Below are positions 13,826 to 32,075 of a stretch of DNA of 64,000 nt, one piece after another. The DNA is from Isosphaeraceae bacterium (GTDB lineage: Bacteria > Planctomycetota > Planctomycetia > Isosphaerales > Isosphaeraceae). A program made the position numbers and the translations under genes. The notes below the pieces were generated by a model, which saw only the letters and a program-made list of their open reading frames with translations, searched no databases and was not told the DNA's origin. Numbering within the stretch: the stretch's first letter is position 1; every line of letters starts with the position of its first letter. Location: contig JBKQMU010000083.1 of NCBI GenBank assembly GCA_052146555.1, positions 39,316 through 103,315 on the forward strand, given 5' to 3'.

Positions 13826-14059
13826 CCTTCTCCCCGTGGGAGAAGGTGGCCGAAGGCCGGATGAGGGGGAATCGACAGGTCCACGCGTCCCTCAACCGCC
13901 GCTGCGCGGCACCTTCTCCCGGGGGCAGAAGGCATCTTTTTTCCCTTCTCCCTGTGGGAGAAGGTGGCCGAAGGCCGGATGAGGGAGTGAACAGGTCCAG
14001 GCGCCGACCACCCGCCCCTCAACCGCCGCTGCGCGGCACCTTCTCCCGGGAGGAGAAGG
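13826..14059. repeat. REP-like cluster, family B (CCTTCTCCC-n-GGGAGAAGG hairpins), two tandem composite units
   Basis: Repeated GGGAGAAGGTGGCCGAAGGCCGGATGAGGG and CCCTCAACCGCCGCTGCGCGGCACCTTCTCCC modules. Confidence 0.85.
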
Positions 14060-20345: not shown

Positions 20346-20498
20346 CCTTCTCCCTCGAGGGAGCGGGGGGAACCCGGGGAACCCGCGTGCGGGTCGCGGG
20401 GTCGGGCCGGAACGGCCGGATGAGGGGGCTCCATCACGACGCTTGCTTCCCACCCCTCAACCGCCGCTGCGCGGCACCTTCTCCCGGTGGGAGAAGGG
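20346..20498. repeat. REP-like element, family B
   Basis: GGCCGGATGAGGGG...CCCCTCAACCGCCGCTGCGCGGCACCTTCTCCCGGTGGGAGAAGGG. Confidence 0.8.
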
Positions 20499-20599
20499 AT
20501 GGTCACACCGGCCTTCCTTGATCGTCGCCTCCGGAAGAGAAAAAGACCAGTAGGCAGTTTGGGACTGAAAACAGGTGCGCGCTGTCGTATCATCGGCTC

Positions 20600-21574: not shown

Positions 21575-22363
21575 TCACCCCCCCGCCTCTTCCATGGGGC
21601 GCACCACCCAGTCGATCAAATCGACGACCAAGGTCGAAACCACGACCAGAAGCAGCAAGAGCGCCATCAGAAAGATCGGTGATGGCCACGAAGCTTTCCA
21701 GCCCGTCGCGGCCAGGCCGGGGCTGGCCGGTCTCGGTTTCGTTCCCGTGAACAAATCCCGCGTTCCAGGCAGGAGCATGACCACTAGCAGGAACCAGGGC
21801 AGGGCATCGGCAACGACGTAATCCGGCCACTGGTCGAGCCAGACCGGCGCGTGGAATCGCCACTGCCAGAGCATGACGAGGGTCGTGACGATCACCACCA
21901 GCGCATCCCATGCAATCGCTCCGACCCGGGCCCAGCGCCAGAGCCGCCAGAGTCCGTGGCCTATTGTGAGGTTGACGGTGATCAGGATGATCGGAAGGAT
22001 GATCCCGCGCAGAGGACCCGACTGGGGAATGCCCTGCGCTCGCATGCTCAACAGCTCCTGAGCAAGCCAGACCCCGGCGCGGAGACCAAGTGCTGAGTGA
22101 ATGAGGGCAACGATGCGGACCGCCACGGTGCGCGGGGTCGAGGCTGATCGCGGAGGCGTGATTTTGGCGGCCAATCCGACCATCTGGGGAGCGGCGGCAC
22201 GCAGCCGCTGACGAATGACCATCGCCAGCGTCACCAGACAAAGAAGCGCAGGCAACCCCGTAAGATTCCACCACGCGACCAGCGTGAGAAAATCCCAAGG
22301 GCTAGGCTTGGCAGCGGGAGGCATTGTCTTCTTCCGCCTCTCGAAGTTCTCGCGCGGCAACAA
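21575..22363 (-). CDS. Hypothetical multi-pass membrane protein
   Basis: About six to seven hydrophobic segments; no motif recognised. Confidence 0.6.
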   Translation of the reverse strand: MLPRENFERRKKTMPPAAKPSPWDFLTLVAWWNLTGLPALLCLVTLAMVIRQRLRAAAPQMVGLAAKITPPRSASTPRTVAVRIVALIHSALGLRAGVWLAQELLSMRAQGIPQSGPLRGIILPIILITVNLTIGHGLWRLWRWARVGAIAWDALVVIVTTLVMLWQWRFHAPVWLDQWPDYVVADALPWFLLVVMLLPGTRDLFTGTKPRPASPGLAATGWKASWPSPIFLMALLLLLVVVSTLVVDLIDWVVRPMEEAGG

Positions 22364-22746: not shown

Positions 22747-23649
22747 TTAGATCCGCGGTCCGCGGTCGCCGACGGGGAAAGCACCCCAGCCCAGCTTGTC
22801 GCGGAGGGTCCGATAGAAGCTGTGGCCGGGAAGGCGGACCATCGGGAAGTGGGTCTTGCCGCGGCGGATGACCACCCGGTCGCCGGCCTGGAGCGGGATC
22901 TGCACCTGACCGTCGATGACCAGCACCGCGGACGTGCCTTCGCCCCGAGAAACCATCTCGAACGTCTTATGCGCGCTGTCGACCAGCGGGCGCTGGGTCA
23001 GCGTGTGCGCGCAGATCGGCGTGACGACGAACATGTGCGCATTGGGCGGCAAGATCGGACCGCCGGCAGAGAGGCTGTGCGCGGTCGAGCCGACGGGCGT
23101 GGCGATGATCAGGCCGTCGCATCGATAGGTCATCACGCTCTCGCCGTCGATCGACAGGCCGATCTCGATCAAGTGAAACGTCGGTGACGCGCGGATGACG
23201 GCATCGTTCAGACCGCGGAAGGCGCGCATCGGACCGTTCTTGGGTATCAAGGTGCACGAGAGCGTCATCATGCTTTCGACCGTGAACCGCCGCTCGGACA
23301 GGTCGGTCAAGCGGTCGAAGAAGACTGCGGGGGTCAAGTCGGCGAGGAAGCCGAGCCGGCCGGCGTTGATGCCCAGAACGGGGGTCGGATGGTCGTCCAT
23401 CCGGCGGGCGGTGTGCAGCACGGTTCCGTCGCCGCCCAGCACGAGGGCGACATCCGCGGGGAGCTTGGCAAGGTCGGAATCGGCGGAGAGATCGATGCCC
23501 GCCAGGATCACGCCCGGTTTGCAGACGATGGTCACGGCCAGCCGCTCCGCCTCGGCGTGGACCTCTTCCCGCGTGCCGTTACCCAGAATCATCAAGCGCA
23601 AGGGCGGCCGCGGGGCAGACCGGTGGGGCGGCTGCGGCGAGTTCTCCAT
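22747..23649 (-). CDS. nadK: NAD kinase
   Basis: LGGDGT, GINAGRLGFL, LND, DGLIIATPVGSTAHSLSAGGPI. Confidence 0.97.
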   Translation of the reverse strand: MENSPQPPHRSAPRPPLRLMILGNGTREEVHAEAERLAVTIVCKPGVILAGIDLSADSDLAKLPADVALVLGGDGTVLHTARRMDDHPTPVLGINAGRLGFLADLTPAVFFDRLTDLSERRFTVESMMTLSCTLIPKNGPMRAFRGLNDAVIRASPTFHLIEIGLSIDGESVMTYRCDGLIIATPVGSTAHSLSAGGPILPPNAHMFVVTPICAHTLTQRPLVDSAHKTFEMVSRGEGTSAVLVIDGQVQIPLQAGDRVVIRRGKTHFPMVRLPGHSFYRTLRDKLGWGAFPVGDRGPRI

Positions 23650-23806
23650 GAGCTCAGAGGCCCTCCTCCAGAGTTTTGATCCAGGCGACCGTCCGGTGGA
23701 AACGACCGGCGCAGGCCAGACTCTATGACACCCGAAATGAGGGCATTCTGCCAGGCGGGATTAGCGGGGCCGTTTCATTCTCTGCAAGGGTCGCCACAGG
23801 CTGCCC

Positions 23807-23901
23807 CCCTCACCCGGCCTTCGGCCACCCTCTCCCGAAGGAGAGGGTATGAATCAACCTTCTCCCCCCGGGAGAAGGTGCCGCGCAGCGGCGGATGAGG
23901 G
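23807..23901. repeat. REP-like element, family B
   Basis: CCCTCACCCGGCCTTCGGCCACCCTCTCCC..GGAGAGGG and GGGAGAAGGTGCCGCGCAGCGGCGGATGAGGG. Confidence 0.8.
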
Positions 23902-23973
23902 GAGTCTACCGCCAGGATGAAACACCCCTGAACCCGGCTGCATCGCGATCGCATGACGACGGGCCGCTGCGTC

Positions 23974-24047
23974 GGGTGGCCGGGGCAGAATGCCCCGGGC
24001 CTTCGGCGACCGCCCCGGGGCGTCGCTGCGCTCCGACCCGGCCACCC
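23974..24047. repeat. REP-like element, family A
   Basis: GGGTGGCCGGGGCAGAATGCCCCGG...CCGGCCACCC. Confidence 0.75.
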
Positions 24048-24125
24048 AAATTCCCTGTGGTCTGGCCGCTGATCTGAAATCGCTTCTGCCGACCTGCCCA
24101 GCGTGGTGGAACAGGTCGTCCCGTG

Positions 24126-27100
24126 TCACTTCGAGGGAGACGGGGGGATCTCGTCACCGAAGCCGTACTTCACCCACTCGTCGAAGTTCTGTGGTTGACG
24201 CGAGTCGGCGATCAGGGCGAGCATCTCTCTGAGGTGGTGGGCGAAGTTCCGCATCGACCTATAGCGATCGAAGTCCTGCGTCGATACCCCTCGGGGATTG
24301 TTTCGCATCCGTTGGTCCTGCTTCCTTAACTCATCTTCCCAGTACCTGTCGCATTCGTCCCGCTCGCTCTGACCCATGATCTTGGCATCCGGCAGACAAA
24401 GGACCGCGATGCGGCGAAGAAACTCCTCAGCGACCATCTTGCTGTTCCGCCACACCTCAAAGAGCTCAAACATGCAGTTAGCCGATTCCAAATACTCTTT
24501 GCTCAAGATCACGAAGACTCGGTTTCCCGAACCGAGCCGTTGCATGAACCTGGAGAATCGATCGCCGAGGCCCACCCCAGTCCGATCGCGTAGGACGCTC
24601 TTACCTCGCCGGTCCGCCTCCTGACAGAGCCGATCTACCAGCGCCATGCTCTCCTTATTTTTCCAGCCGTAGGAGACGCAATACTCATCCGCGTTGGACG
24701 GCGGCGGGGTGAACTCTAGTTTTCGCTCGGGTGCAGCGTCTTCCCCTTCGGGCCACACGACGTGTCCCGGGCCAGATATCTTCGGGTGGGCCGGATGCAG
24801 CGCATCGGAAGTTCCCTTGGTTTCCGGCACCAAGCATCCGGACCGCTGGATCTCTTTCTCGATCCACTCTTGAAGCCGCCCAAGCAGCTCTACCTCCTGA
24901 CCGCCCCGGGCGGACACCGCGATCTGGCCGCTCCAGGTGTTGGGCTTGTCGCTTAGCCGTTGCTCGATGAGCGCATGGCTGCGGGTGGTCCGTTCATAGA
25001 GGCAGACGCCGTCCTTCCAGTACACGGCGCTGATTCCCGCCTCCTGGCCGAGCCGGCTGATGATGCCGCGCATGACGCCGGGGTGCAGGAAGGGGAGCTC
25101 CACCACCAGGTCCCCGCCCGGCTCATGCTCGCCCCACATCGCTTCGATCTCCGCCTCCACTAACCCCCGATCCGGCAGCAGATCGGGGGCGATGAATTCC
25201 GTCTCCAGCTTGCCCCCTTGATCTCCCTTCCGATGCACGAAGCAGATTCCGCACGATTTCATCATGCTGAGGAAAAGCTCCTGTTCCTCGATGCCGTAAT
25301 TGCTCCACACCCGCTCTTCAAGATCCTCGCGGATGAAGCGGCCCCTGGCCCGCTGCAACTGTCGGTAGCATTTCTCCCGATGAAAGACGGCATACACCGC
25401 CTCGAGCGCCCAGGACTGATCGAGCACGATACGGTCGTCGAACAGCCCCTTCTGGTAAAACACAATCCCCGTGTGGTGCAGATAGTCGAGAAGCAATTCG
25501 GGGCTGCTCACTCCCCCCGCTTCGGTACAGAGCTGGTGAAAGAAGTCCCAGGTCAGCCATCGGTATTTTCGCTCCTCCGCGGGGAGCGTCGCGTCACCGT
25601 CCCTCAAGGCCTCCAGCTTCCGCTTGACCTTCATGCGGCCTTTGCCGATCCGCGCCTGACCCATCGTCTCCCGCAGCCACAGGATCGCTTGCTGAAGAGC
25701 TTCGTTGAGCGCACCACGACCGCGGTCCTTCAAGGCGCTGTAATGCAGCACCTTGCGGAACTTAAAGTCCCCCAGCGTCTCATCCTCAACGGGCGGGCGC
25801 AGCTCCTCGTCCGTCGCCTGGTCGCACTGGTTTTGCACGATCAGCACCGGGCTGTTGACGCCGCTTAAGTGCCTCACGTATTCCAGCCAGTAGGCCAGCG
25901 GGTGGTTCTGGAAGGTCATGCCGCCGTGCTCGTACTCCCGCGCGTTCTCTGACTGGGGCGTCCAGACGAGGACGAAGATCGACTGCGTGCGCATGAAGAG
26001 CGCGTGGGTGCCGTGATAGAGATCCTGGCCGCCGAAGTCCCAGAGATGCAGGCGGGCCTCCTCGCCCGGGCCAGATGGAGGCCCTGCCTCCTCATGGCCT
26101 GGGTGGGAAGCCTCGATGGCCTGGGGCGGCATCGGCAACGGGGCGGAGGTCACCAGAATGCCGTGCGTGCTGTCCACGCTCGGATCGAACGCCTCCCCGC
26201 GGAGGCGGCGACAGATCTGCGTCTTGCCGATCCGCCCGTTCCCCAGCACCAGCACCTTCACGTCCGGCAGACGTTCCTCTCCGACCTCCAGATCACGCAA
26301 GTGTGCCCGGAGGCGTTCCAGGCAGTTCGCAGAGGCGTGTGGGGATAACACCTCTGCGGGAATGTCGGTGATGTGGGTATTGAAAAGAAAGAGCTGGACA
26401 AGTGATCCGAGCCAGACCAAAGACCCCGGCAGATCGCTCACCGGGGAATTGGAGCAGTTGAGCAATCCCAGCGCGCTCAAGGCGGCCAGTGGACCCAGAT
26501 CGCTCACCTGGGTGTTGGAGCAGTGGAGCAACCGCAGCGAGCTCAAGCCTGCCAGCGGACCCAGATCGCTCACCGGGGTCCCGGAGCAGTCGAGCGATTG
26601 CAGCGCGCTCAAGCCGGCCAGTGGACCCAGATCGCTCACCTGGGTGTTGGAGCAGTGGAGCAATTGCAGCGCGCTCAATCCGGTCAGTGGACCCAGATCG
26701 CTCACCGGGGTGGCGGAGCAGTTGAGCGATCGCAGCGTGCTCAAGCTTGCCAGTGGACCCAGATCGCTCACCTGGGTCATGGAGCAGTCGAGCGACCGCA
26801 GCGAGCTCAAGCCGGCCAGTGGACCCAGATCGCTCACCGGGGTATTGAAGCAGCTGAGCGCTTGCAGCGAGCTCAAGCCTGCCAGCGGACCCAGATCGCT
26901 CACCGGGGTAGAGGAGCAGCGGAACGATCGCAGCGCACTCAAGCCGGTCAGTGGTCCCAGATCGCTCACCTGGGTCCCGGAGCAGTCGACCGCTTGCAGC
27001 GCGCTCAAGCCCGCCAGCGGGCTTAGATCGCAGATGTCGGTTTCGCAGACTGACAGGAGCCTCAGTCCGGGAAAACGCTGAAGGTGGATGAGCTGGTGAG

Positions 27101-27323
27101 CGTCCTGATTCGGATCCAGGTCCGAAGCGGCGTCATGCCACTTTCCCTGCTCATCCCGCCAGGCGCTTCCCAGGTTCAGGCCCCAGAGATGCTCCAGCTC
27201 GAACAGCTCCTCCGGCAGTTCCGTCAGCCCAAGTCGGCCAAGGTCGAGGAAGCCGGTGCGTTTTTCCTTCGCTTCCGCGATGCGTTCGCGGGCGATGGCG
27301 AGGCCTTCAGGGTCGGAGGGCAT
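24126..27323 (-). CDS. LRR-Roc-COR-TIR protein
   Basis: About 11 LRRs; Roc GTPase (GNGRIGKT, STHGI, WDFGGQ); COR region; C-terminal TIR-like domain (YCVSYGW...VFVILSKEYLESANCMFEL). Confidence 0.9.
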   Translation of the reverse strand: MPSDPEGLAIARERIAEAKEKRTGFLDLGRLGLTELPEELFELEHLWGLNLGSAWRDEQGKWHDAASDLDPNQDAHQLIHLQRFPGLRLLSVCETDICDLSPLAGLSALQAVDCSGTQVSDLGPLTGLSALRSFRCSSTPVSDLGPLAGLSSLQALSCFNTPVSDLGPLAGLSSLRSLDCSMTQVSDLGPLASLSTLRSLNCSATPVSDLGPLTGLSALQLLHCSNTQVSDLGPLAGLSALQSLDCSGTPVSDLGPLAGLSSLRLLHCSNTQVSDLGPLAALSALGLLNCSNSPVSDLPGSLVWLGSLVQLFLFNTHITDIPAEVLSPHASANCLERLRAHLRDLEVGEERLPDVKVLVLGNGRIGKTQICRRLRGEAFDPSVDSTHGILVTSAPLPMPPQAIEASHPGHEEAGPPSGPGEEARLHLWDFGGQDLYHGTHALFMRTQSIFVLVWTPQSENAREYEHGGMTFQNHPLAYWLEYVRHLSGVNSPVLIVQNQCDQATDEELRPPVEDETLGDFKFRKVLHYSALKDRGRGALNEALQQAILWLRETMGQARIGKGRMKVKRKLEALRDGDATLPAEERKYRWLTWDFFHQLCTEAGGVSSPELLLDYLHHTGIVFYQKGLFDDRIVLDQSWALEAVYAVFHREKCYRQLQRARGRFIREDLEERVWSNYGIEEQELFLSMMKSCGICFVHRKGDQGGKLETEFIAPDLLPDRGLVEAEIEAMWGEHEPGGDLVVELPFLHPGVMRGIISRLGQEAGISAVYWKDGVCLYERTTRSHALIEQRLSDKPNTWSGQIAVSARGGQEVELLGRLQEWIEKEIQRSGCLVPETKGTSDALHPAHPKISGPGHVVWPEGEDAAPERKLEFTPPPSNADEYCVSYGWKNKESMALVDRLCQEADRRGKSVLRDRTGVGLGDRFSRFMQRLGSGNRVFVILSKEYLESANCMFELFEVWRNSKMVAEEFLRRIAVLCLPDAKIMGQSERDECDRYWEDELRKQDQRMRNNPRGVSTQDFDRYRSMRNFAHHLREMLALIADSRQPQNFDEWVKYGFGDEIPPSPSK
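26415..27074 (-). repeat. 66-bp tandem array (10 units) encoding 22-aa LRRs
   Basis: AGATCGC recurs every 66 bp; consensus LSALQSLDCSGTPVSDLGPLAG. Confidence 0.95.
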
Positions 27324-27474
27324 GGGTCAGCGCGATGATCCAACAGGGCCAGTACACAAGAGCAAGCGACGCCAGCGCTATTGTCTCACAGTTGGCGCTG
27401 TTCTCAAAGGTGCCGTTCATCCATCGGCCATGATGTGAGACCCTCTTCGGCGCATGTCCCCCGAAGCCGCCGTT

Positions 27475-27608
27475 TGCCTGACCGCAGGTCTCCCCCTGGG
27501 TACCAGGGCCGTCGCTGACGCTTCCGGCTCTGACGATGACTCCCGCCGGGGCCGTGGTTGCAGACCTCCGGTCGGCGGCGTGGCAACGTCAGGAGACCTG
27601 GCCACAAC
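27475..27608. repeat. REP-like palindromic element, family D
   Basis: Inverted AGGTCTCC / GGAGACCT plus GACCGCAGGTC / GACCTCCGGTC modules; intergenic upstream of the LRR gene. Confidence 0.4.
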
Positions 27609-27905
27609 AGAGAGCCTCTGCGGCAGGTCGCCACCAACCGGTCAAAGCCAGCAGATCTGATGAAACCGAGCGTCATGTCGTAAAATAAGAATAGAGGCGG
27701 CGCGCTCGTTCCACGCGGCCAGAACAGCCGGCCGAGGTTCGATCCGCGCGCCGGACCGACGGGCTTGTCACCTCAGCTCGACCAAGGACCGGGCAATGTC
27801 CCCAAATGTCACACTTCCAGCGAAAATATTGCCGGAAAAATATAAGCAAAGGTAATATTAGTGCCCCGGACGCAGGCGCAACTCGAACATAGATATGTCG
27901 ATCCG

Positions 27906-28095
27906 CCTCATCCGGCCTTCAGCCACCTTCTCCCAATGGGAGAAGGAAAGACGATACCCTCTCCCTCCGGGAGAAGGTGCCGCGCAGCGGCGGATGAGGG
28001 CGCGTCTGGGGCAAGTCGATCCCCCTCATCGGGCCTTCGGCCTCCTTCTCCCAATGGGAGAAGGAAAGACGATACCTTCTCCCCCCGGGCAAGAG
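27906..28095. repeat. REP-like cluster, family B (two units) right after dxs
   Basis: CCTTCTCCCAATGGGAGAAGGAAAGACGATACC occurs twice. Confidence 0.85.
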
Positions 28096-28122
28096 ACTCG
28101 CGCCAGGTTGCAGCCCGTGTCC

Positions 28123-30096
28123 TTACTTGAGCACCGCGGCGGGGGTCGAGCCAGTGCCTCGGCCGTTCTTGCCGTTACTCTCGGTCTGGGTGGCAAGCAG
28201 GCCGACGGACCGGGCCATTCCGATAGCCGAGGCGATGATCCCCTCGACGTCCAGCCCGACCTCGGCGAGCTGCTCGTCGTGCTCGGCGTGGAACACGAAC
28301 CGGTCGGGCAGGCCCAGCCGGCGAACGTGCCCGGCGGCGATGCCGGCGTCGCTGGCCGCTTCCAGCACGGCCGACCCGAAGCCGCCGGCCAAGCAGCCCT
28401 CCTCCACCGTCAGCACGAACGCGGCTTCCTCGATGGCTTTGCAGACCGTCGCTCGATCCAGCGGCTTGGCGAAGCGGGCGTTGATCACCCCCACGCGCAG
28501 GCCGTGCCGCTCACGAAGCTGTTCGGCGGCCCGCACGCAGGTGCCCAGAAGCGCCCCGCAGACGATGATCATGCCGTCGGTCTCCCACTCCAGGACCTCG
28601 GCCTGTCCCAGCTCGATGGGCTGGAAATGCCGCTCGATCGCCTCCAGACTGGCGCGGGGATAACGGATCGCCGTCGGCGAGGTATGCCCAAGGGCGAATT
28701 CGATCATGGGGTCGACGTCGTACTCATCGCCGGGGGCCATCACCACCATGTTGGGGAAGACTCGCATGTAGGCCAGGTCGTAGCTGCCGTGATGCGTCGG
28801 CCCGTCGGCGCCCACCAGCCCGCCCCGGTCCAGGCAAAACACGACCGGCAAATCTTGAAGCGCCACTTCCTGGAAGATCTGGTCGTAGGAGCGCTGGAGG
28901 AACGTGCTGTAAATGTCGACCACCGGCCTGGCGCCCGCCTTGGCCATGCCCGCCGCGAAGGCGACGGCGTGGCTCTCGCAGATGCCGACGTCGAAGAACT
29001 GGCCGGGGAAGACGTCGCGAATCTTGTGGAGCTTGTTGCCCTCGCACATGGCCGCCGTGAGGATCGCCACCTTGGGGTCCCGGCGGCAGGCCTCGAAGAG
29101 CGCGGCACTGACCGCGTCGGTGTACGTCCGGTAGGAGATCGACTTGAGCGGGATGATCCCGTTTTCCGCCTTCCGAAACGGCGCGGGCGCATGAAACTTC
29201 ACGGGGTCCTTAACCGCCGGCTCGAAGCCGTGCCCCTTGTTGGTCAGGACGTGCAGGAGGATCGGCCCGTCCATCGCCTTGACGCGCTCGAGATAACTCC
29301 GCAGGCCCTTGAGGTCGTGGCCGTCGATCGGACCCAGATACGTAAGGCCCAGCTCCTCGAAGAGCATCCCGTGATGGAGCGAGGCCTTGATGGCGTCCTT
29401 GAATTGCTGGAACCAGCGCTCGGCGTGCTCGCCGACCACGGGAATGGTGGGCAAAACCGACTTGAGGCGCTTGTTCCAGTCGAGGTAGGTCGTGGACATC
29501 CGCGCGCTGTCGAGATAGTTAGCCAGCCCGCCGACGCGGGGGCAGATCGACATCTTGTTGTCGTTGAGGATAACCAGGAGCGGGGTCTTCAGTCCGCTGG
29601 CGTGGTTGAAGGCTTCAAAGACGATGCCCGAGGGCAGGGCACCGTCGCCGATGACGGCCACCGAGTGCCGGTTGGGCTTGCCGGTGAGCTGGTCGCCGAC
29701 CTTCAGCCCCATCGCGGTGGACGGCGCGCAGCCGGCATGGCCGGTCATGAACAGGTCGAAGGGGCTCTCGGCCGGGTTGGGATAGCCCATCAGGCCGGCT
29801 TTGGTGCGGATCGTGTGCAAGAGCCCTGCGCGGCCGGTGATGAGCTTGTGCGGATAGATCTGATGGCCTGTGTCCCAGATCAGGCGGTCGTGCGTGAAAT
29901 CGAACGTCAGGTGCAAAGCCAGGCAAAGCTCGACCACCCCGAGGTTGCTGGCGAAGTGCGCCGACCGGCGGCCGACCACGCCGATCAGCGCGTTGCGCAT
30001 CTCGGCGGCGAGCTGATCGAGGTCTTTATCGGAGAGCTTCTTCAAGTCGGCCGGCGACTGGATCCGAGCCAGCAAGGCATCCGCACTAATCATCAA
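28123..30096 (-). CDS. dxs: 1-deoxy-D-xylulose-5-phosphate synthase
   Basis: WDTGHQIYPHK, GDGAL...ILNDNKMSI, DVGICESHAV, DGPTHHG. Confidence 0.98.
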   Translation of the reverse strand: MMISADALLARIQSPADLKKLSDKDLDQLAAEMRNALIGVVGRRSAHFASNLGVVELCLALHLTFDFTHDRLIWDTGHQIYPHKLITGRAGLLHTIRTKAGLMGYPNPAESPFDLFMTGHAGCAPSTAMGLKVGDQLTGKPNRHSVAVIGDGALPSGIVFEAFNHASGLKTPLLVILNDNKMSICPRVGGLANYLDSARMSTTYLDWNKRLKSVLPTIPVVGEHAERWFQQFKDAIKASLHHGMLFEELGLTYLGPIDGHDLKGLRSYLERVKAMDGPILLHVLTNKGHGFEPAVKDPVKFHAPAPFRKAENGIIPLKSISYRTYTDAVSAALFEACRRDPKVAILTAAMCEGNKLHKIRDVFPGQFFDVGICESHAVAFAAGMAKAGARPVVDIYSTFLQRSYDQIFQEVALQDLPVVFCLDRGGLVGADGPTHHGSYDLAYMRVFPNMVVMAPGDEYDVDPMIEFALGHTSPTAIRYPRASLEAIERHFQPIELGQAEVLEWETDGMIIVCGALLGTCVRAAEQLRERHGLRVGVINARFAKPLDRATVCKAIEEAAFVLTVEEGCLAGGFGSAVLEAASDAGIAAGHVRRLGLPDRFVFHAEHDEQLAEVGLDVEGIIASAIGMARSVGLLATQTESNGKNGRGTGSTPAAVLK

Positions 30097-31034
30097 CGAT
30101 CCCTTTCCAAGAGTGCCAGCGCCAGCTCGCGCAGGCGGAATCCGTTCGAGCCTAGAGACGCCAGGGCTAGGGTGGCCTCGTCGGCAAGCTGCTGGGCCCG
30201 GAAGCGGCTTCCATCAATGCCCAGGAACCTCGGGTATGTCCATTTGCCTAGACCGGAATCCTTGCCGACGCGCTTGCCAACTTTGGCTTCATCACCCTGG
30301 ACGTCCAGGAGATCGTCGACGATCTGAAAGGCCAAGCCGACGGCTCGCCCATAGCGGTCCAGAGCATCCATGTGTGCCTGAGGGGCTCCGGCAATCACGG
30401 CTCCCATCTGCAAAGGAGCGCGGAGCAGAGCGCCGGTCTTACGGCGGTGAATGGCTTCGAGCTTCTCCAGCGACCCTGAGTCCTGCTCGCTGGCGGCGAG
30501 CTTTTCAGCCTGGAGGTCGGCCATCTGGCCCCCGACCATGCCGGCGGGCCCCGCCGCTTCCGCCAGGATCCGGACACACTGGAGGGCCGAGGCGTCGGGC
30601 TCGACCGACCGGGCGACCAGCTCGAAGGCCAGCGTCAGTAGAGCGTCCCCCGCGAGGATCGCCGTGGCCTCGCCAAAGGCCCTATGGCAGGTCGGCCGGC
30701 CCCGCCGCAGATCGTCGTTGTCCATCGCCGGCAGGTCGTCGTGAATGAGCGAGTACGTGTGCACCATTTCAATCGCACAAGCAGCGCCCAACGCTCCGCT
30801 GGCGTCGCCACCGCACGCCTCGGCGGACATCAGGCACAGAACCGGCCGCAATCGCTTCCCACCCCCCAGCACGCTGTAACGCATGGCTGCGGCCAAGTGG
30901 GCCGGCGTCGCCGCCCCGCAGTCCAGGTCAACCTCCGGCAACCATCGATCCAGAGCATCATCCACCCGTTGGCGGGCCTGCTCCAGATATTCTTGTAGCG
31001 GAGCTTCAACGGATATTGGCAGGCAAGTCGTCAT
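30093..31034 (-). CDS. ispA: Polyprenyl (farnesyl) diphosphate synthase
   Basis: GGKRLRP, SLIHDDLPAMDNDDLRRG, KTGAL, FQIVDDLLD; 4-nt overlap with dxs. Confidence 0.96.
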   Translation of the reverse strand: MTTCLPISVEAPLQEYLEQARQRVDDALDRWLPEVDLDCGAATPAHLAAAMRYSVLGGGKRLRPVLCLMSAEACGGDASGALGAACAIEMVHTYSLIHDDLPAMDNDDLRRGRPTCHRAFGEATAILAGDALLTLAFELVARSVEPDASALQCVRILAEAAGPAGMVGGQMADLQAEKLAASEQDSGSLEKLEAIHRRKTGALLRAPLQMGAVIAGAPQAHMDALDRYGRAVGLAFQIVDDLLDVQGDEAKVGKRVGKDSGLGKWTYPRFLGIDGSRFRAQQLADEATLALASLGSNGFRLRELALALLERDR

Positions 31035-31530
31035 GGGACAATTCGTTACGTCACGTCATGTGCGAGAGCGAGAAGCCGCTTTCCGGGGCCCGGTAGCAAG
31101 CGACCGCGGGTTCCTTCCCCGATTGCTCGGTGCTCTCGCTATTGTTGACAGTCATTCCTGGAATGTCCACATCCCAGCCGTCAAAACTTTGTGTCGCAAA
31201 GCAGTGCGCACCGCTTCCGAAGTCTGGCTCTCAAACGCGCGATGAAATAGAGGGTCTGGGTTATCCTTGCGGCCTGGCCTTGCTTCACAACTCCTTTTGT
31301 TATCACGTTTTGCGTTTCTTGGGAAGAGAGAAAACCGGAGCCCGCGGGAATCGTCAACGGGCGTGGAGGGGGAATCTCAAGCGCGCCGGACGGGCCCAGA
31401 CGCATGCAGTGCGGCAAGGACGGAAAGGTGTGAAGATGAGCTGAAGAAGAGATATTGGCCGGATTGGCCGATGGGTTCTTACCACCTTTTGCGAACCGGG
31501 CGGAAGCGATCGCAGTTCGGGCGGGATCGC

Positions 31531-31851
31531 TCACTTCCTCGATTTACGGACCGGCTCGGCTTCGTCGCCGCGCGGTTCTTTGCGCTTTTGACGCTCGGTT
31601 TCGATCGTTGCGGTCGCGTCGAAAGGGGCCGTGGCCGCCTTGCCTTCGGAATCGACGCCAGTGAGCAGTGCCACGGACCGCTCGGCTCGTTCCAGCATGG
31701 CGTAGCACTGGGACAGCAGGCGCACGCCGGTCTCGTACCTGGCCAGCGCCGCGGCCAGGTCTGGCTCGCCGCGTTCCAGCGCCGAGACGATCTCCTCAAG
31801 CTGGCTGAGGGCCGTCTCGAAGGGAGGTTCCTTTGCCTCTTCCGCGGACAT
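31531..31851 (-). CDS. xseB: Exodeoxyribonuclease VII small subunit
   Basis: FETALSQLEEIVSALERGEPDL..ALARYETGVRLL..C...LERAE. Confidence 0.93.
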   Translation of the reverse strand: MSAEEAKEPPFETALSQLEEIVSALERGEPDLAAALARYETGVRLLSQCYAMLERAERSVALLTGVDSEGKAATAPFDATATIETERQKRKEPRGDEAEPVRKSRK

Positions 31852-32075
31852 GAGAGACTCGCAGTAGGAATCGGGGCCGGGCGATCCCAAGACTCATACG
31901 TTCGACCCGGCGTCGGGAGACGCTAGCATACTCGTTACGGCCCGCTCGTGCGACGGGGCTCGAGTGAACCGTGACCGGGCAGCGAGCCGCCAGGGGTTCC
32001 AGCCTCTGAATTTCCAAGACGTACGAGGAATGCTCCACAAGAGTTTTTACAATTTGGTGTAAATATAGATGGCGA

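What the first reader, a model, noticed from the sequence alone, without database searches (positions are those of the whole stretch)
24126..27323. Single-gene LRR sensor - Roc/COR switch - TIR effector
Seen: complete architecture, with a Glu in CMFEL at the position equivalent to the TIR catalytic Glu. Established: bacterial TIRs are NAD+ hydrolases or signal synthases in anti-phage defence; Roco proteins are dimerising GTPases. Inference: ligand-gated NADase immunity. Notably, it lies directly upstream of nadK on the same strand.
Basis: partly seen in the sequence, partly recalled or inferred. Interest (0 to 1): 0.65.

Follow-up and report, generated by a model that had tools for sequence, protein, structure and literature searches.

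The report
Single-gene LRR-Roco-TIR immune-type sensor
An intact accessory gene joins a leucine-rich-repeat sensor, an LRRK2-type GTPase switch and a TIR (NAD-cleaving type) domain; this design was predicted by computer in 2021 to be a bacterial immune receptor and I found no paper testing it, and its place next to nadK is only an accident of where it was inserted.

Summary
Window 24126-27323 (-) is one uninterrupted 1065-aa ORF with LRR (aa 1-333), Roc GTPase (349-554), COR-A/COR-B (558-837), a disordered linker and a C-terminal TIR domain (881-1055). The Glu of CMFEL (E953) aligns with the catalytic Glu of plant TIR NADases (Roq1, L6, RUN1) and is invariant in 60/60 homologues. The LRR-Roc-COR part is a close relative of Chlorobium tepidum Roco (E 2e-94).

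The nadK hint does not hold. In 9 of 12 related genomes dxs and nadK are directly adjacent. Here a ~4.35 kb segment carrying only this gene sits between them, and nadK keeps its own conserved upstream region. Three congeners carry other cargo at the same junction, one including type I-B CRISPR-Cas and other defence genes.

The gene is patchy among relatives, has no conserved partner gene, and its architecture occurs in many phyla. Kaur et al. (eLife 2021) already catalogued this architecture as a predicted "AP-GTPase counter-invader system". I found no experimental test, and PADLOC has no model for it.

Most likely it is a GTPase-switched sensor that triggers NAD+ consumption, an abortive-infection type of immunity. 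That function is inferred, not shown. It is a new member of a known, predicted kind, of moderate interest.

The parts
24126..27323 (-). LRR-Roc-COR-TIR gene, 1065 aa, intact
   Evidence: full-length AF2 model pLDDT 84.7, pTM 0.75
26325..27323 (-). N-terminal cap plus LRR array (aa 1-333). About ten 22-residue repeats of the form S-x-L-x-x-L-x-C-S-x-T-x-V-S-D-L-G-P-L-A-G-L. At DNA level this is a 66-bp tandem array, 26430-27031, 9.1 copies, 83% matches.
   Evidence: The variable positions are 2, 4, 5, 7, 10, 12, 20 and 21 of each repeat; the scaffold positions are fixed.
25662..26279 (-). Roc GTPase domain (aa 349-554): G1 GNGRIGKT 361-368, switch-I T386, G3 DFGGQ 429-433, G4 NQCD 498-501, G5 SA 529-530. 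A low-confidence insert lies at about aa 398-421.
24813..25652 (-). COR-A (aa 558-730) and COR-B (aa 736-837)
   Evidence: Pfam; phmmer hit to CtRoco 8r4b/6hlu at E 2e-94; Foldseek hit to 6hlu at E 2.3e-40
24684..24812 (-). Flexible linker between COR-B and TIR (aa 838-880; pLDDT below 50 for aa 839-865)
24159..24683 (-). TIR domain (aa 881-1055): strands A-D, then long C-terminal helices
   Evidence: The domain family has 2448 clusters at 50% identity.
24465..24467 (-). Codon of E953, at the catalytic-Glu position of TIR NADases
   Evidence: invariant in 60/60
27380..27407 (-). Sigma-70-like promoter match (TTGAGA-16-TG-GACAAT) 57 bp upstream of the ATG. A separate AT-rich stretch lies at about 27820-27870.
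   Evidence: consensus match only
23762..28122 (.). Inserted segment (~4.35 kb) between the nadK upstream region and the dxs stop codon. It holds no other credible ORF.
23805..23902 (.). Dispersed ~100-nt palindromic (REP/MITE-like) element between the gene and nadK
   Evidence: RNA fold -76.5 kcal/mol, z -5.95
27897..28089 (.). Two more copies of the same element between the gene and dxs (27897-28000 and 28015-28089)
22747..23649 (-). nadK, a flanking core gene that is not part of the system
28123..30096 (-). dxs, a flanking core gene that is not part of the system

Best explanation
This is a horizontally acquired, single-gene, cytoplasmic sensor-switch-effector protein of the bacterial Roco (AP-GTPase) type. 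The variable concave face of the LRR array is proposed to bind an invader-derived or stress-derived ligand. The Roc-COR GTPase module changes nucleotide and oligomeric state in response. This brings together or releases the C-terminal TIR domains, which hang on a roughly 40-residue flexible linker directly after the COR-B dimerisation region. The assembled TIRs then use E953 to cleave NAD(P)+, which stops growth or kills the infected cell (abortive infection). Shown here: the domain architecture, intact GTPase motifs, the TIR fold, the conserved catalytic-position Glu, accessory and patchy distribution, the absence of a partner gene, and insertion into a variable core-gene junction. Inferred: the ligand, the direction of the GTPase switch, NAD+ as substrate and the immune role.
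For: The architecture and motifs are intact. The LRR-Roc-COR part is homologous to CtRoco in sequence (E 2e-94) and in the model (Foldseek 6hlu 2.3e-40, then LRRK1/2). The C-terminal model is confident and matches TIR NADases. E953 aligns with the catalytic Glu of Roq1, L6 and RUN1, and E953 plus S884, R912, D913, Y944, S947, C950 and W958 are invariant in 60/60. There is only one COR and one copy of this TIR type in the genome. Of 40 relatives only three carry a homologue, each at another locus, and one of those is frameshifted. The gene is inserted into the conserved dxs-nadK junction. That junction holds type I-B Cas3/Cas8b, HEC-05/GmrSD and an AriA-like ATPase in congener G002. The same TIR type is fused elsewhere to an FGE-sulfatase (FGS) domain or a second TIR, or stands alone. 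Kaur et al. 2021 list LRR + AP-GTPase + COR + TIR among predicted counter-invader systems.
Against: There are no functional data of any kind, and I found no experimental paper on bacterial Roco-TIR proteins. PADLOC gives only a weak bSEFIR hit (E 0.0011). Among 149 nearest neighbours at 39 homologous loci, defence-type genes are only sporadic (TIR_2 x3, mad3 x2, and single NsnA, IetA, ThsB-like and PDC hits), and most neighbours are housekeeping genes. Defence-island association is therefore weak in this sample and was not compared with a control. From my own knowledge, CtRoco monomerises on GTP binding whereas TIR NADases need oligomers, so the wiring of the switch is unclear. GC3 (0.785) is lower than in nadK and dxs (0.88) but within the range of other genes in the window.
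Confidence: 0.6

Rival explanations
1. The TIR is a signal synthase, as in Thoeris. On activation it makes a cyclic or modified ADP-ribose that switches on an effector encoded elsewhere in the genome.
For: TIR domains with the same catalytic Glu make signalling nucleotides in Thoeris and in plants (established knowledge). Animal TIRs, some in LRR/Roc/COR proteins, produce cADPR-type molecules (bioRxiv 10.64898/2026.04.20.719644). Earlier scan notes report Roco-TIR genes paired with small membrane or SLATT genes in other genomes.
Against: There is no other credible ORF in the 4.35 kb insert. There is no recurrent neighbour at 39 homologous loci. The nearby membrane ORF 21575-22363 also occurs in congeners without the Roco gene. 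Known signal-making TIRs are encoded beside their effector.
Confidence: 0.12
2. It is a GTPase-switched cell-fate or stress regulator not aimed at phages, for example kin conflict, programmed death or developmental signalling in a complex bacterium.
For: Kaur et al. link these systems to bacteria with multicellular or complex habits. Defence-gene neighbours are only sporadic. The gene is rare on plasmids (3 records) and absent from phage records.
Against: The gene is patchy within one genus, with a pseudogene in G006, and a conserved regulator would not behave so. It sits in a junction that carries CRISPR-Cas and restriction-type genes in a congener. The variable LRR face fits changing ligands.
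Confidence: 0.12
3. The TIR is a non-catalytic adaptor that recruits another TIR protein, as in animal TLR/MyD88 signalling.
For: Three weak TIR-like ORFs exist elsewhere in the genome. Some family members carry two TIR domains.
Against: The catalytic-position Glu and surrounding residues are invariant in 60/60. The closest structural and profile matches are enzymatic plant and bacterial TIRs.
Confidence: 0.05
4. It is a secreted or host-directed effector, with an internalin-like LRR and a TIR in the manner of BtpA/TcpB-type proteins.
For: NCBIfam and PDB give strong internalin LRR similarity. Sources often name homologues 'internalin A'.
Against: The N-terminus (MPSDPEGLAIARERIAEAKEK...) has no signal-peptide-like hydrophobic stretch. 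The internalin scores are far below the family cut-offs (135 bits against 1050). A cytoplasmic-type Roc-COR switch lies in the middle, and the closest relative is the cytoplasmic CtRoco.
Confidence: 0.04
5. It forms an NAD(P) homeostasis module that works together with nadK.
For: It is on the same strand, 476 bp upstream of nadK. No canonical terminator was predicted between them.
Against: dxs and nadK are adjacent without this gene in 9 of 12 relatives. nadK keeps its conserved upstream 110 bp. A strongly folding repeat element lies between the two genes. Three other congeners carry unrelated cargo at the same site. Homologues elsewhere are not next to nadK.
Confidence: 0.03

Closest known systems
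Prokaryotic AP-GTPase (Roc)-COR 'counter-invader' systems predicted in silico by Kaur, Iyer, Burroughs and Aravind, eLife 2021 (PMC8195603, Fig. 6D)
   Same: The same N-terminal variable LRR, AP-GTPase/Roc, COR and a C-terminal effector slot, with TIR explicitly listed among at least 24 effector domains. Distribution is patchy.
   Different: Nothing in kind; this is one more member. Specific to this case: it is the only such gene in its genome, it is inserted alone in the dxs-nadK junction, and its TIR belongs to a large unnamed sub-clade.
Chlorobium/Chlorobaculum tepidum Roco (CtRoco; PDB 6hlu, 3dpu, 8r4b)
   Same: The LRR-Roc-COR region is homologous (phmmer E 2e-94 over aa 108-700; Foldseek 2.3e-40), with the same 22-residue LRR type and the same G motifs.
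   Different: CtRoco has no TIR. Its biological role is unknown; it is studied as a model for LRRK2.
Plant TIR-NLR receptors (Roq1, RPP1, L6, RUN1)
   Same: The logic is the same: an LRR sensor, a nucleotide switch and a TIR enzyme. These are the best profile and fold matches of the TIR, with the catalytic Glu aligned.
   Different: The switch is a Roc-COR GTPase, not an NB-ARC STAND ATPase. The domain order is reversed (TIR C-terminal). No strand E is predicted. Sequence identity is only 11-20%.
Bacterial single-protein TIR or STAND defence sensors (Avs/bNACHT with TIR effectors, SPARTA TIR-APAZ, AbTir-type NADases)
   Same: A one-polypeptide sensor plus a TIR effector. The expected outcome is NAD+ depletion on activation.
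   Different: There is no STAND or Argonaute module. PADLOC gives no hit above noise except a weak bSEFIR match.
Thoeris (ThsB TIR plus ThsA or other effector)
   Same: A TIR with a catalytic Glu.
   Different: No adjacent effector gene. The TIR is fused to its own sensor and switch.

Membership tests
Roco proteins (Roc GTPase followed by COR) | Roc (Ras-of-complex) GTPase domain with G1-G5 motifs | tested here: met
   Pfam Roc 64.9 bits. GNGRIGKT 361-368, T386, DFGGQ 429-433, NQCD 498-501, SA 529-530. The G1 and G3 residues are invariant in 60 homologues.
Roco proteins (Roc GTPase followed by COR) | COR domain immediately C-terminal to Roc | tested here: met
   COR-A 71.9 bits; COR-B 26.8 bits (cut-off 27). 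CtRoco match at E 2e-94. Foldseek 6hlu 2.3e-40.
Roco proteins (Roc GTPase followed by COR) | GTP binding and hydrolysis coupled to a change in dimer state | not testable with these tools
   Needs purified protein.
Catalytic TIR domains (NAD+ hydrolase/cyclase) | TIR (flavodoxin-like) fold | tested here: met
   TIR_2 30.5 bits against a cut-off of 28. AF2 pLDDT 89.7. Top Foldseek PDB hits are TIR domains, probability 1.00, target-normalised TM 0.59-0.66.
Catalytic TIR domains (NAD+ hydrolase/cyclase) | Conserved catalytic Glu in helix C | tested here: met
   The family motif S-P-Y-C-M-F-E-L aligns on Roq1 STWCLEEL, L6 SKWCLMEL and RUN1 SRWCLDEL. E953 is invariant in 60/60.
Catalytic TIR domains (NAD+ hydrolase/cyclase) | NAD(P)+ cleavage activity | not testable with these tools
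   Biochemical assay required.
AP-GTPase-centred counter-invader systems (Kaur et al. 2021) | LRR + AP-GTPase + COR + a C-terminal effector domain from the conflict-system repertoire | tested here: met
AP-GTPase-centred counter-invader systems (Kaur et al. 2021) | Variable, rapidly evolving LRR and patchy, horizontally spread distribution | tested here: met
   Variable repeat positions. Homologue lengths range from 916 to 1656 aa. Three of 40 relatives have the gene. It occurs in many phyla.
AP-GTPase-centred counter-invader systems (Kaur et al. 2021) | Actual counter-invader (defence) function | not testable with these tools
   I found no experimental report.
Thoeris | A separate effector gene (ThsA-type or membrane effector) next to the TIR gene | tested here: not met
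   No credible second ORF in the insert. No recurrent neighbour at 39 loci.
STAND/NLR-like bacterial sensors (Avs, bNACHT) | STAND NTPase (NACHT/NB-ARC) core | tested here: not met
   Pfam finds Roc/Ras, not a STAND domain.
bSEFIR defence proteins | Match to the SEFIR-type domain model | tested here: inconclusive
   PADLOC bSEFIR E 0.0011, 16.9 bits. PDB 5y8f scores E 0.06 with the single sequence and 0.0024 with the profile, weaker than the plant TIR hits.

The most novel reading that the evidence does not exclude
The protein is a working innate-immune receptor in which an LRRK2-type Roc-COR GTPase, rather than a STAND ATPase, gates a TIR NADase. Its LRR face diversifies through the 66-bp tandem array. 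The dxs-nadK junction of this planctomycete genus serves as a recombinase-free landing site for such single-gene immune cargo. If so, the ancestral job of the Roc-COR machinery would be immune switching, and there would be a tractable bacterial system for how Roco nucleotide states control an effector.
Probability: 0.45. Interest if true: 0.6.

Novelty: new member of a known kind. Interest (0 to 1): 0.35.

Why it matters
If tested and confirmed, Roco-TIR proteins would add a GTPase-switched class to bacterial innate immunity, beside the STAND/NLR-like sensors. They would also give a simple readout (NAD+ loss) for how Roc-COR nucleotide states control an attached effector, which bears on LRRK2 mechanism. 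This particular locus adds little beyond a clean example. It is one intact gene with no partner, with precisely mapped insertion borders in a core-gene junction, and cultured relatives are available for experiments. It also shows that an apparent metabolic link (nadK) can be a positional accident.

Tried and rejected
1. Known defence systems. PADLOC gave only a weak bSEFIR hit (0.0011) and spbK (0.064), so no known system matches.

2. A functional link to nadK. Rejected by synteny in 12 relatives and by the conserved nadK upstream region.

3. A partner gene. Small ORFs in both flanks are Arg/Pro-rich non-coding-type frames. The 262-aa membrane ORF at 21575-22363 also occurs in G002 and G008, which lack the Roco gene. 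A tally of 149 neighbours at 39 homologous loci shows no recurrent family.

4. The flanking ~100-nt direct repeats as ends of a mobile element or a target duplication. Rejected. The element has about 140 hits on 53 contigs, and the two flanking copies (84-85% alike) are less alike than copies elsewhere (up to 94-95%). It is absent from the empty sites. No integrase or transposase is present in the insert.

5. Composition as evidence of transfer. GC3 is 0.785 against 0.88 in nadK and dxs, but this is within the range of the window, so it is not decisive.

6. Carriage on plasmids or phages. There are 3 plasmid records, only one of which covers most of the query (99%, Niveispirillum), and no phage record.

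8. Literature. I found no experimental paper on bacterial Roco-TIR proteins in the searchable library.
Full report
**Observation**

The window holds one uninterrupted ORF on the minus strand, 24126-27323, of 1065 aa. Pfam finds:
- LRR_4/LRR_14 across aa 72-333
- Roc at 356-501 (64.9 bits)
- COR-A at 578-716 (71.9 bits)
- COR-B at 739-828 (26.8 bits, a hair under the 27-bit cut-off)
- TIR_2 at 883-960 (30.5 bits against a cut-off of 28, covering only positions 3-78 of the 122-position model)

NCBIfam returns only sub-threshold internalin-type LRR hits. PADLOC returns only a weak bSEFIR hit (E 0.0011).

**Is the C-terminal domain a catalytic-type TIR?**

The Pfam call was marginal, so I tested it in three ways.

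1. An exhaustive HMMER search with aa 850-1065 found 2448 clusters (50% identity) at E <= 1e-3. These matched over the whole ~180 residues, so the unit is a conserved domain and not just the first 80 residues.
2. An AlphaFold2 model of aa 850-1065 built with 59 homologues is confident (pLDDT 89.7, pTM 0.81). It shows strand A, helix A, strand B, helix B, strand C, helix C and strand D, then three long helices. Its Foldseek hits in the PDB are almost exclusively TIR domains, led by plant TIR-NLR TIRs (RPS4, RUN1, Roq1, RPP1, L6) and followed by AbTir and SPARTA. Probability is 1.00, E is about 1e-4 and target-normalised TM is 0.59-0.66.
3. A profile of 18 domain sequences (A3) hits Roq1 (6.5e-8), L6 (7e-7) and RUN1 (1e-6) by sequence alone.

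The printed alignments place the family motif S-P-Y-C-M-F-E-L on STWCLEEL (Roq1), SKWCLMEL (L6) and SRWCLDEL (RUN1). The aligned Glu in those proteins is the catalytic residue; by my own knowledge of the literature these are Roq1 E86, L6 E135 and RUN1 E100. In the window protein this Glu is E953 in CMFEL (nt 24462-24476). In an alignment of 60 full-length homologues E953 is invariant, as are S884, R912, D913, F926, Y944, L945, S947, C950, W958 and W995.

**The sensor and the switch**

The protein's best match among solved structures is the Chlorobium tepidum Roco protein (8r4b/6hlu, E 2e-94, covering LRR, Roc and COR-A). The full-length model has pLDDT 84.7 and pTM 0.75, with a disordered linker at aa 839-865. 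It matches 6hlu at E 2.3e-40, then LRRK1 and LRRK2.

The G motifs are present: GNGRIGKT 361-368, T386, DFGGQ 429-433, NQCD 498-501 and SA 529-530. The G1 and G3 residues are invariant across the family.

The LRR is an array of about ten 22-residue repeats. At DNA level it is a 66-bp tandem array (26430-27031, 9.1 copies, 83% matches). Within the repeats S1, L3, C8 and V13-S14-D15-L16 are fixed. Positions 4, 5, 7 and 10, the x positions of LxxLxCxxT on the strand face, vary most.

**Genomic context and the nadK question**

The neighbours are housekeeping genes: tilS, a SAM methyltransferase, a membrane ORF, nadK, then the Roco-TIR gene, then dxs, ispA and xseB.

I located nadK and dxs in 15 genomes of the same genus and family.
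- In G001, G004, G005, G006, G007, G011, G013, G014 and G017 the two genes are direct neighbours in the same orientation, about 130-330 bp apart.
- In the window they are 4.47 kb apart.
- In G008 they are about 4 kb apart, in G002 about 32 kb and in G010 about 30 kb.

DNA alignment with four empty sites shows homology running from nadK through about 110 bp of its upstream region, up to window position 23761, and resuming inside dxs. The inserted segment is therefore about 23762-28122. It contains this one gene and no other credible ORF. nadK has kept its own upstream region.

At the same junction G002 carries Cas3 HD and helicase, Cas8b (type I-B), an HEC-05/GmrSD-like gene (E 5e-64), an AriA-like ATPase and two IS transposases, together with ordinary genes. 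G008 carries a YTV-domain protein and two unknown ORFs.

The junction is thus a variable site in this genus, and the adjacency to nadK is positional and not functional. A sigma-70-like match lies 57 bp upstream of the ATG, with an AT-rich stretch further up, both inside the insert.

**Flanking repeats**

A ~100-nt palindromic element lies on both sides of the gene, at 23805-23902 and at 27897-28000 and 28015-28089, and in inverted orientation at 20414-20504. It folds very stably (-76.5 kcal/mol, z -5.95).

It is a dispersed genomic repeat, with about 140 BLAST hits on 53 contigs. The two flanking copies are less alike (84-85%) than copies elsewhere (up to 95%), and the empty sites lack it. I do not read it as the end of a mobile element. 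Whether such elements help recombination at this site is open.

**Distribution**

- The genome has a single COR domain and a single copy of this TIR type.
- Of 40 relatives, only G006, G009 and G017 have a Roco homologue. Each is on a contig other than the one with dxs-nadK. The G006 copy (79-87% identical) is broken by several frameshifts.
- Across public data the same LRR-Roc-COR-TIR architecture is common. More than 100 clusters at 90% identity appear in the first search.
- At least 577 Roc-matching loci were found in species-representative genomes. The best 80 cover nearly the whole protein. They come from Planctomycetota, Verrucomicrobiota, Alpha-, Beta- and Gammaproteobacteria, Cyanobacteria, Nitrospira, Kuenenia, Geobacter and Chitinophaga.
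- It is rare on plasmids (3 records) and absent from phage records.

**Is there a partner?**

Three close homologues sit in unrelated contexts: one beside an integrase and a resolvase, one beside an nSTAND1 giant protein, and one among metabolic genes.

A tally of the two nearest ORFs on each side at 39 loci (149 proteins) shows no recurrent family. The maximum is TIR_2 in three. Most neighbours are ordinary genes, and defence-type hits are sporadic (mad3, NsnA, IetA, ThsB-like, PDC families).

This supports a self-contained single-gene system. It also means that association with defence islands is weak in this sample, and I had no control set to compare it with.

**Mechanism**

Shown: an intact sensor-switch-effector chain with a catalytic-type TIR, encoded by an accessory gene.

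Inferred: the LRR binds a ligand, the Roc-COR nucleotide and oligomer state changes, the TIRs (tethered by a flexible linker just after the COR-B dimerisation region) assemble, and NAD(P)+ is consumed.

The direction of the switch is uncertain. By my knowledge of the literature, CtRoco is dimeric without GTP and monomerises with GTP, whereas TIR NADase sites form across TIR-TIR contacts. Either the dimeric state is the active one, or ligand binding drives higher-order assembly. Whether the product is NAD+ depletion or a signalling nucleotide cannot be told from sequence. The lack of any partner gene favours depletion.

**Comparison with what is known**

[quoted passage not shown] These have rapidly evolving N-terminal LRRs, a COR domain and at least 24 alternative C-terminal domains, including TIR. 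This gene fits that description in every tested respect.

I found no experimental study of a bacterial member. A 2026 preprint reports catalytic TIRs in animal proteins; the abbreviation list of its architecture figure includes LRR, Roc and COR.

Earlier notes of this scan record 54 similar findings in at least 40 genomes and reach the same conclusion. Some report small membrane or SLATT partner genes; none is present here. Another note on this same genome describes a single CHAT-STAND-TPR gene inserted in the 3' end of xseA about 12 kb away. That fits a pattern of single immune-type genes dropped into core-gene junctions in this organism.

**Verdict**

The nadK point is refuted. This is a new member of a known (predicted) kind, of moderate interest, mainly as a clean candidate for a first experimental test of the class.

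Noticed in passing
window 20414-20504, 23805-23902, 27897-28000, 28015-28089 (also about 13883-13985): A dispersed ~100-nt palindromic REP/MITE-like element. It has about 140 BLAST hits on 53 contigs of this genome and folds at -76.5 kcal/mol (z -5.95). It is absent from the empty dxs-nadK sites of four congeners.
   Followed up: partly
L015/L016 (G002:C46:14000-50000), L014 (G008), L017/L018 (G010): The dxs-nadK junction is a variable site in this genus. G002 holds about 32 kb with type I-B Cas3/Cas8b, an HEC-05/GmrSD-like gene, an AriA-like ATPase and IS4/5 and IS110 transposases, plus ordinary genes. G008 holds about 4 kb with a YTV-domain protein. G010 holds about 30 kb.
   Followed up: partly
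L023 (G006:C62:1-3500): The closest copy of the Roco-TIR gene in a congener (79-87% identical in Roc-COR) lies at a different locus. It is split over several reading frames with stops, so it is a likely pseudogene or an assembly error.
   Followed up: partly
protein P0121 (metagenomic, 584 aa): A natural 'switch-less' relative. Its LRR (70% identical to aa 1-357) is joined in frame directly to the linker and TIR (55% identical to aa 840-1063), so Roc and COR are precisely missing. It could be a real LRR-TIR variant or a chimeric assembly.
   Followed up: partly
proteins P0150, P0127, P0194, P0213, P0135, P0160: The same TIR sub-clade is also found N-terminal to an FGE-sulfatase (FGS) domain, in tandem with a second canonical TIR_2, after Roc-COR without an LRR, before long helical regions with no Pfam match, and as stand-alone ~200-aa proteins.
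   Followed up: partly
window 21575-22363 (-): A 262-aa multi-pass membrane ORF with no Pfam family lies downstream of nadK. It is present near nadK in G002 and about 5.5 kb from it in G008, and was not found in the other nine genomes searched.
   Followed up: partly
window 28123-31890 (-) and 22747-23649 (-): The xseB-ispA-dxs-nadK cluster is a conserved housekeeping gene order. It is interrupted here only by the Roco-TIR insert.
   Followed up: partly
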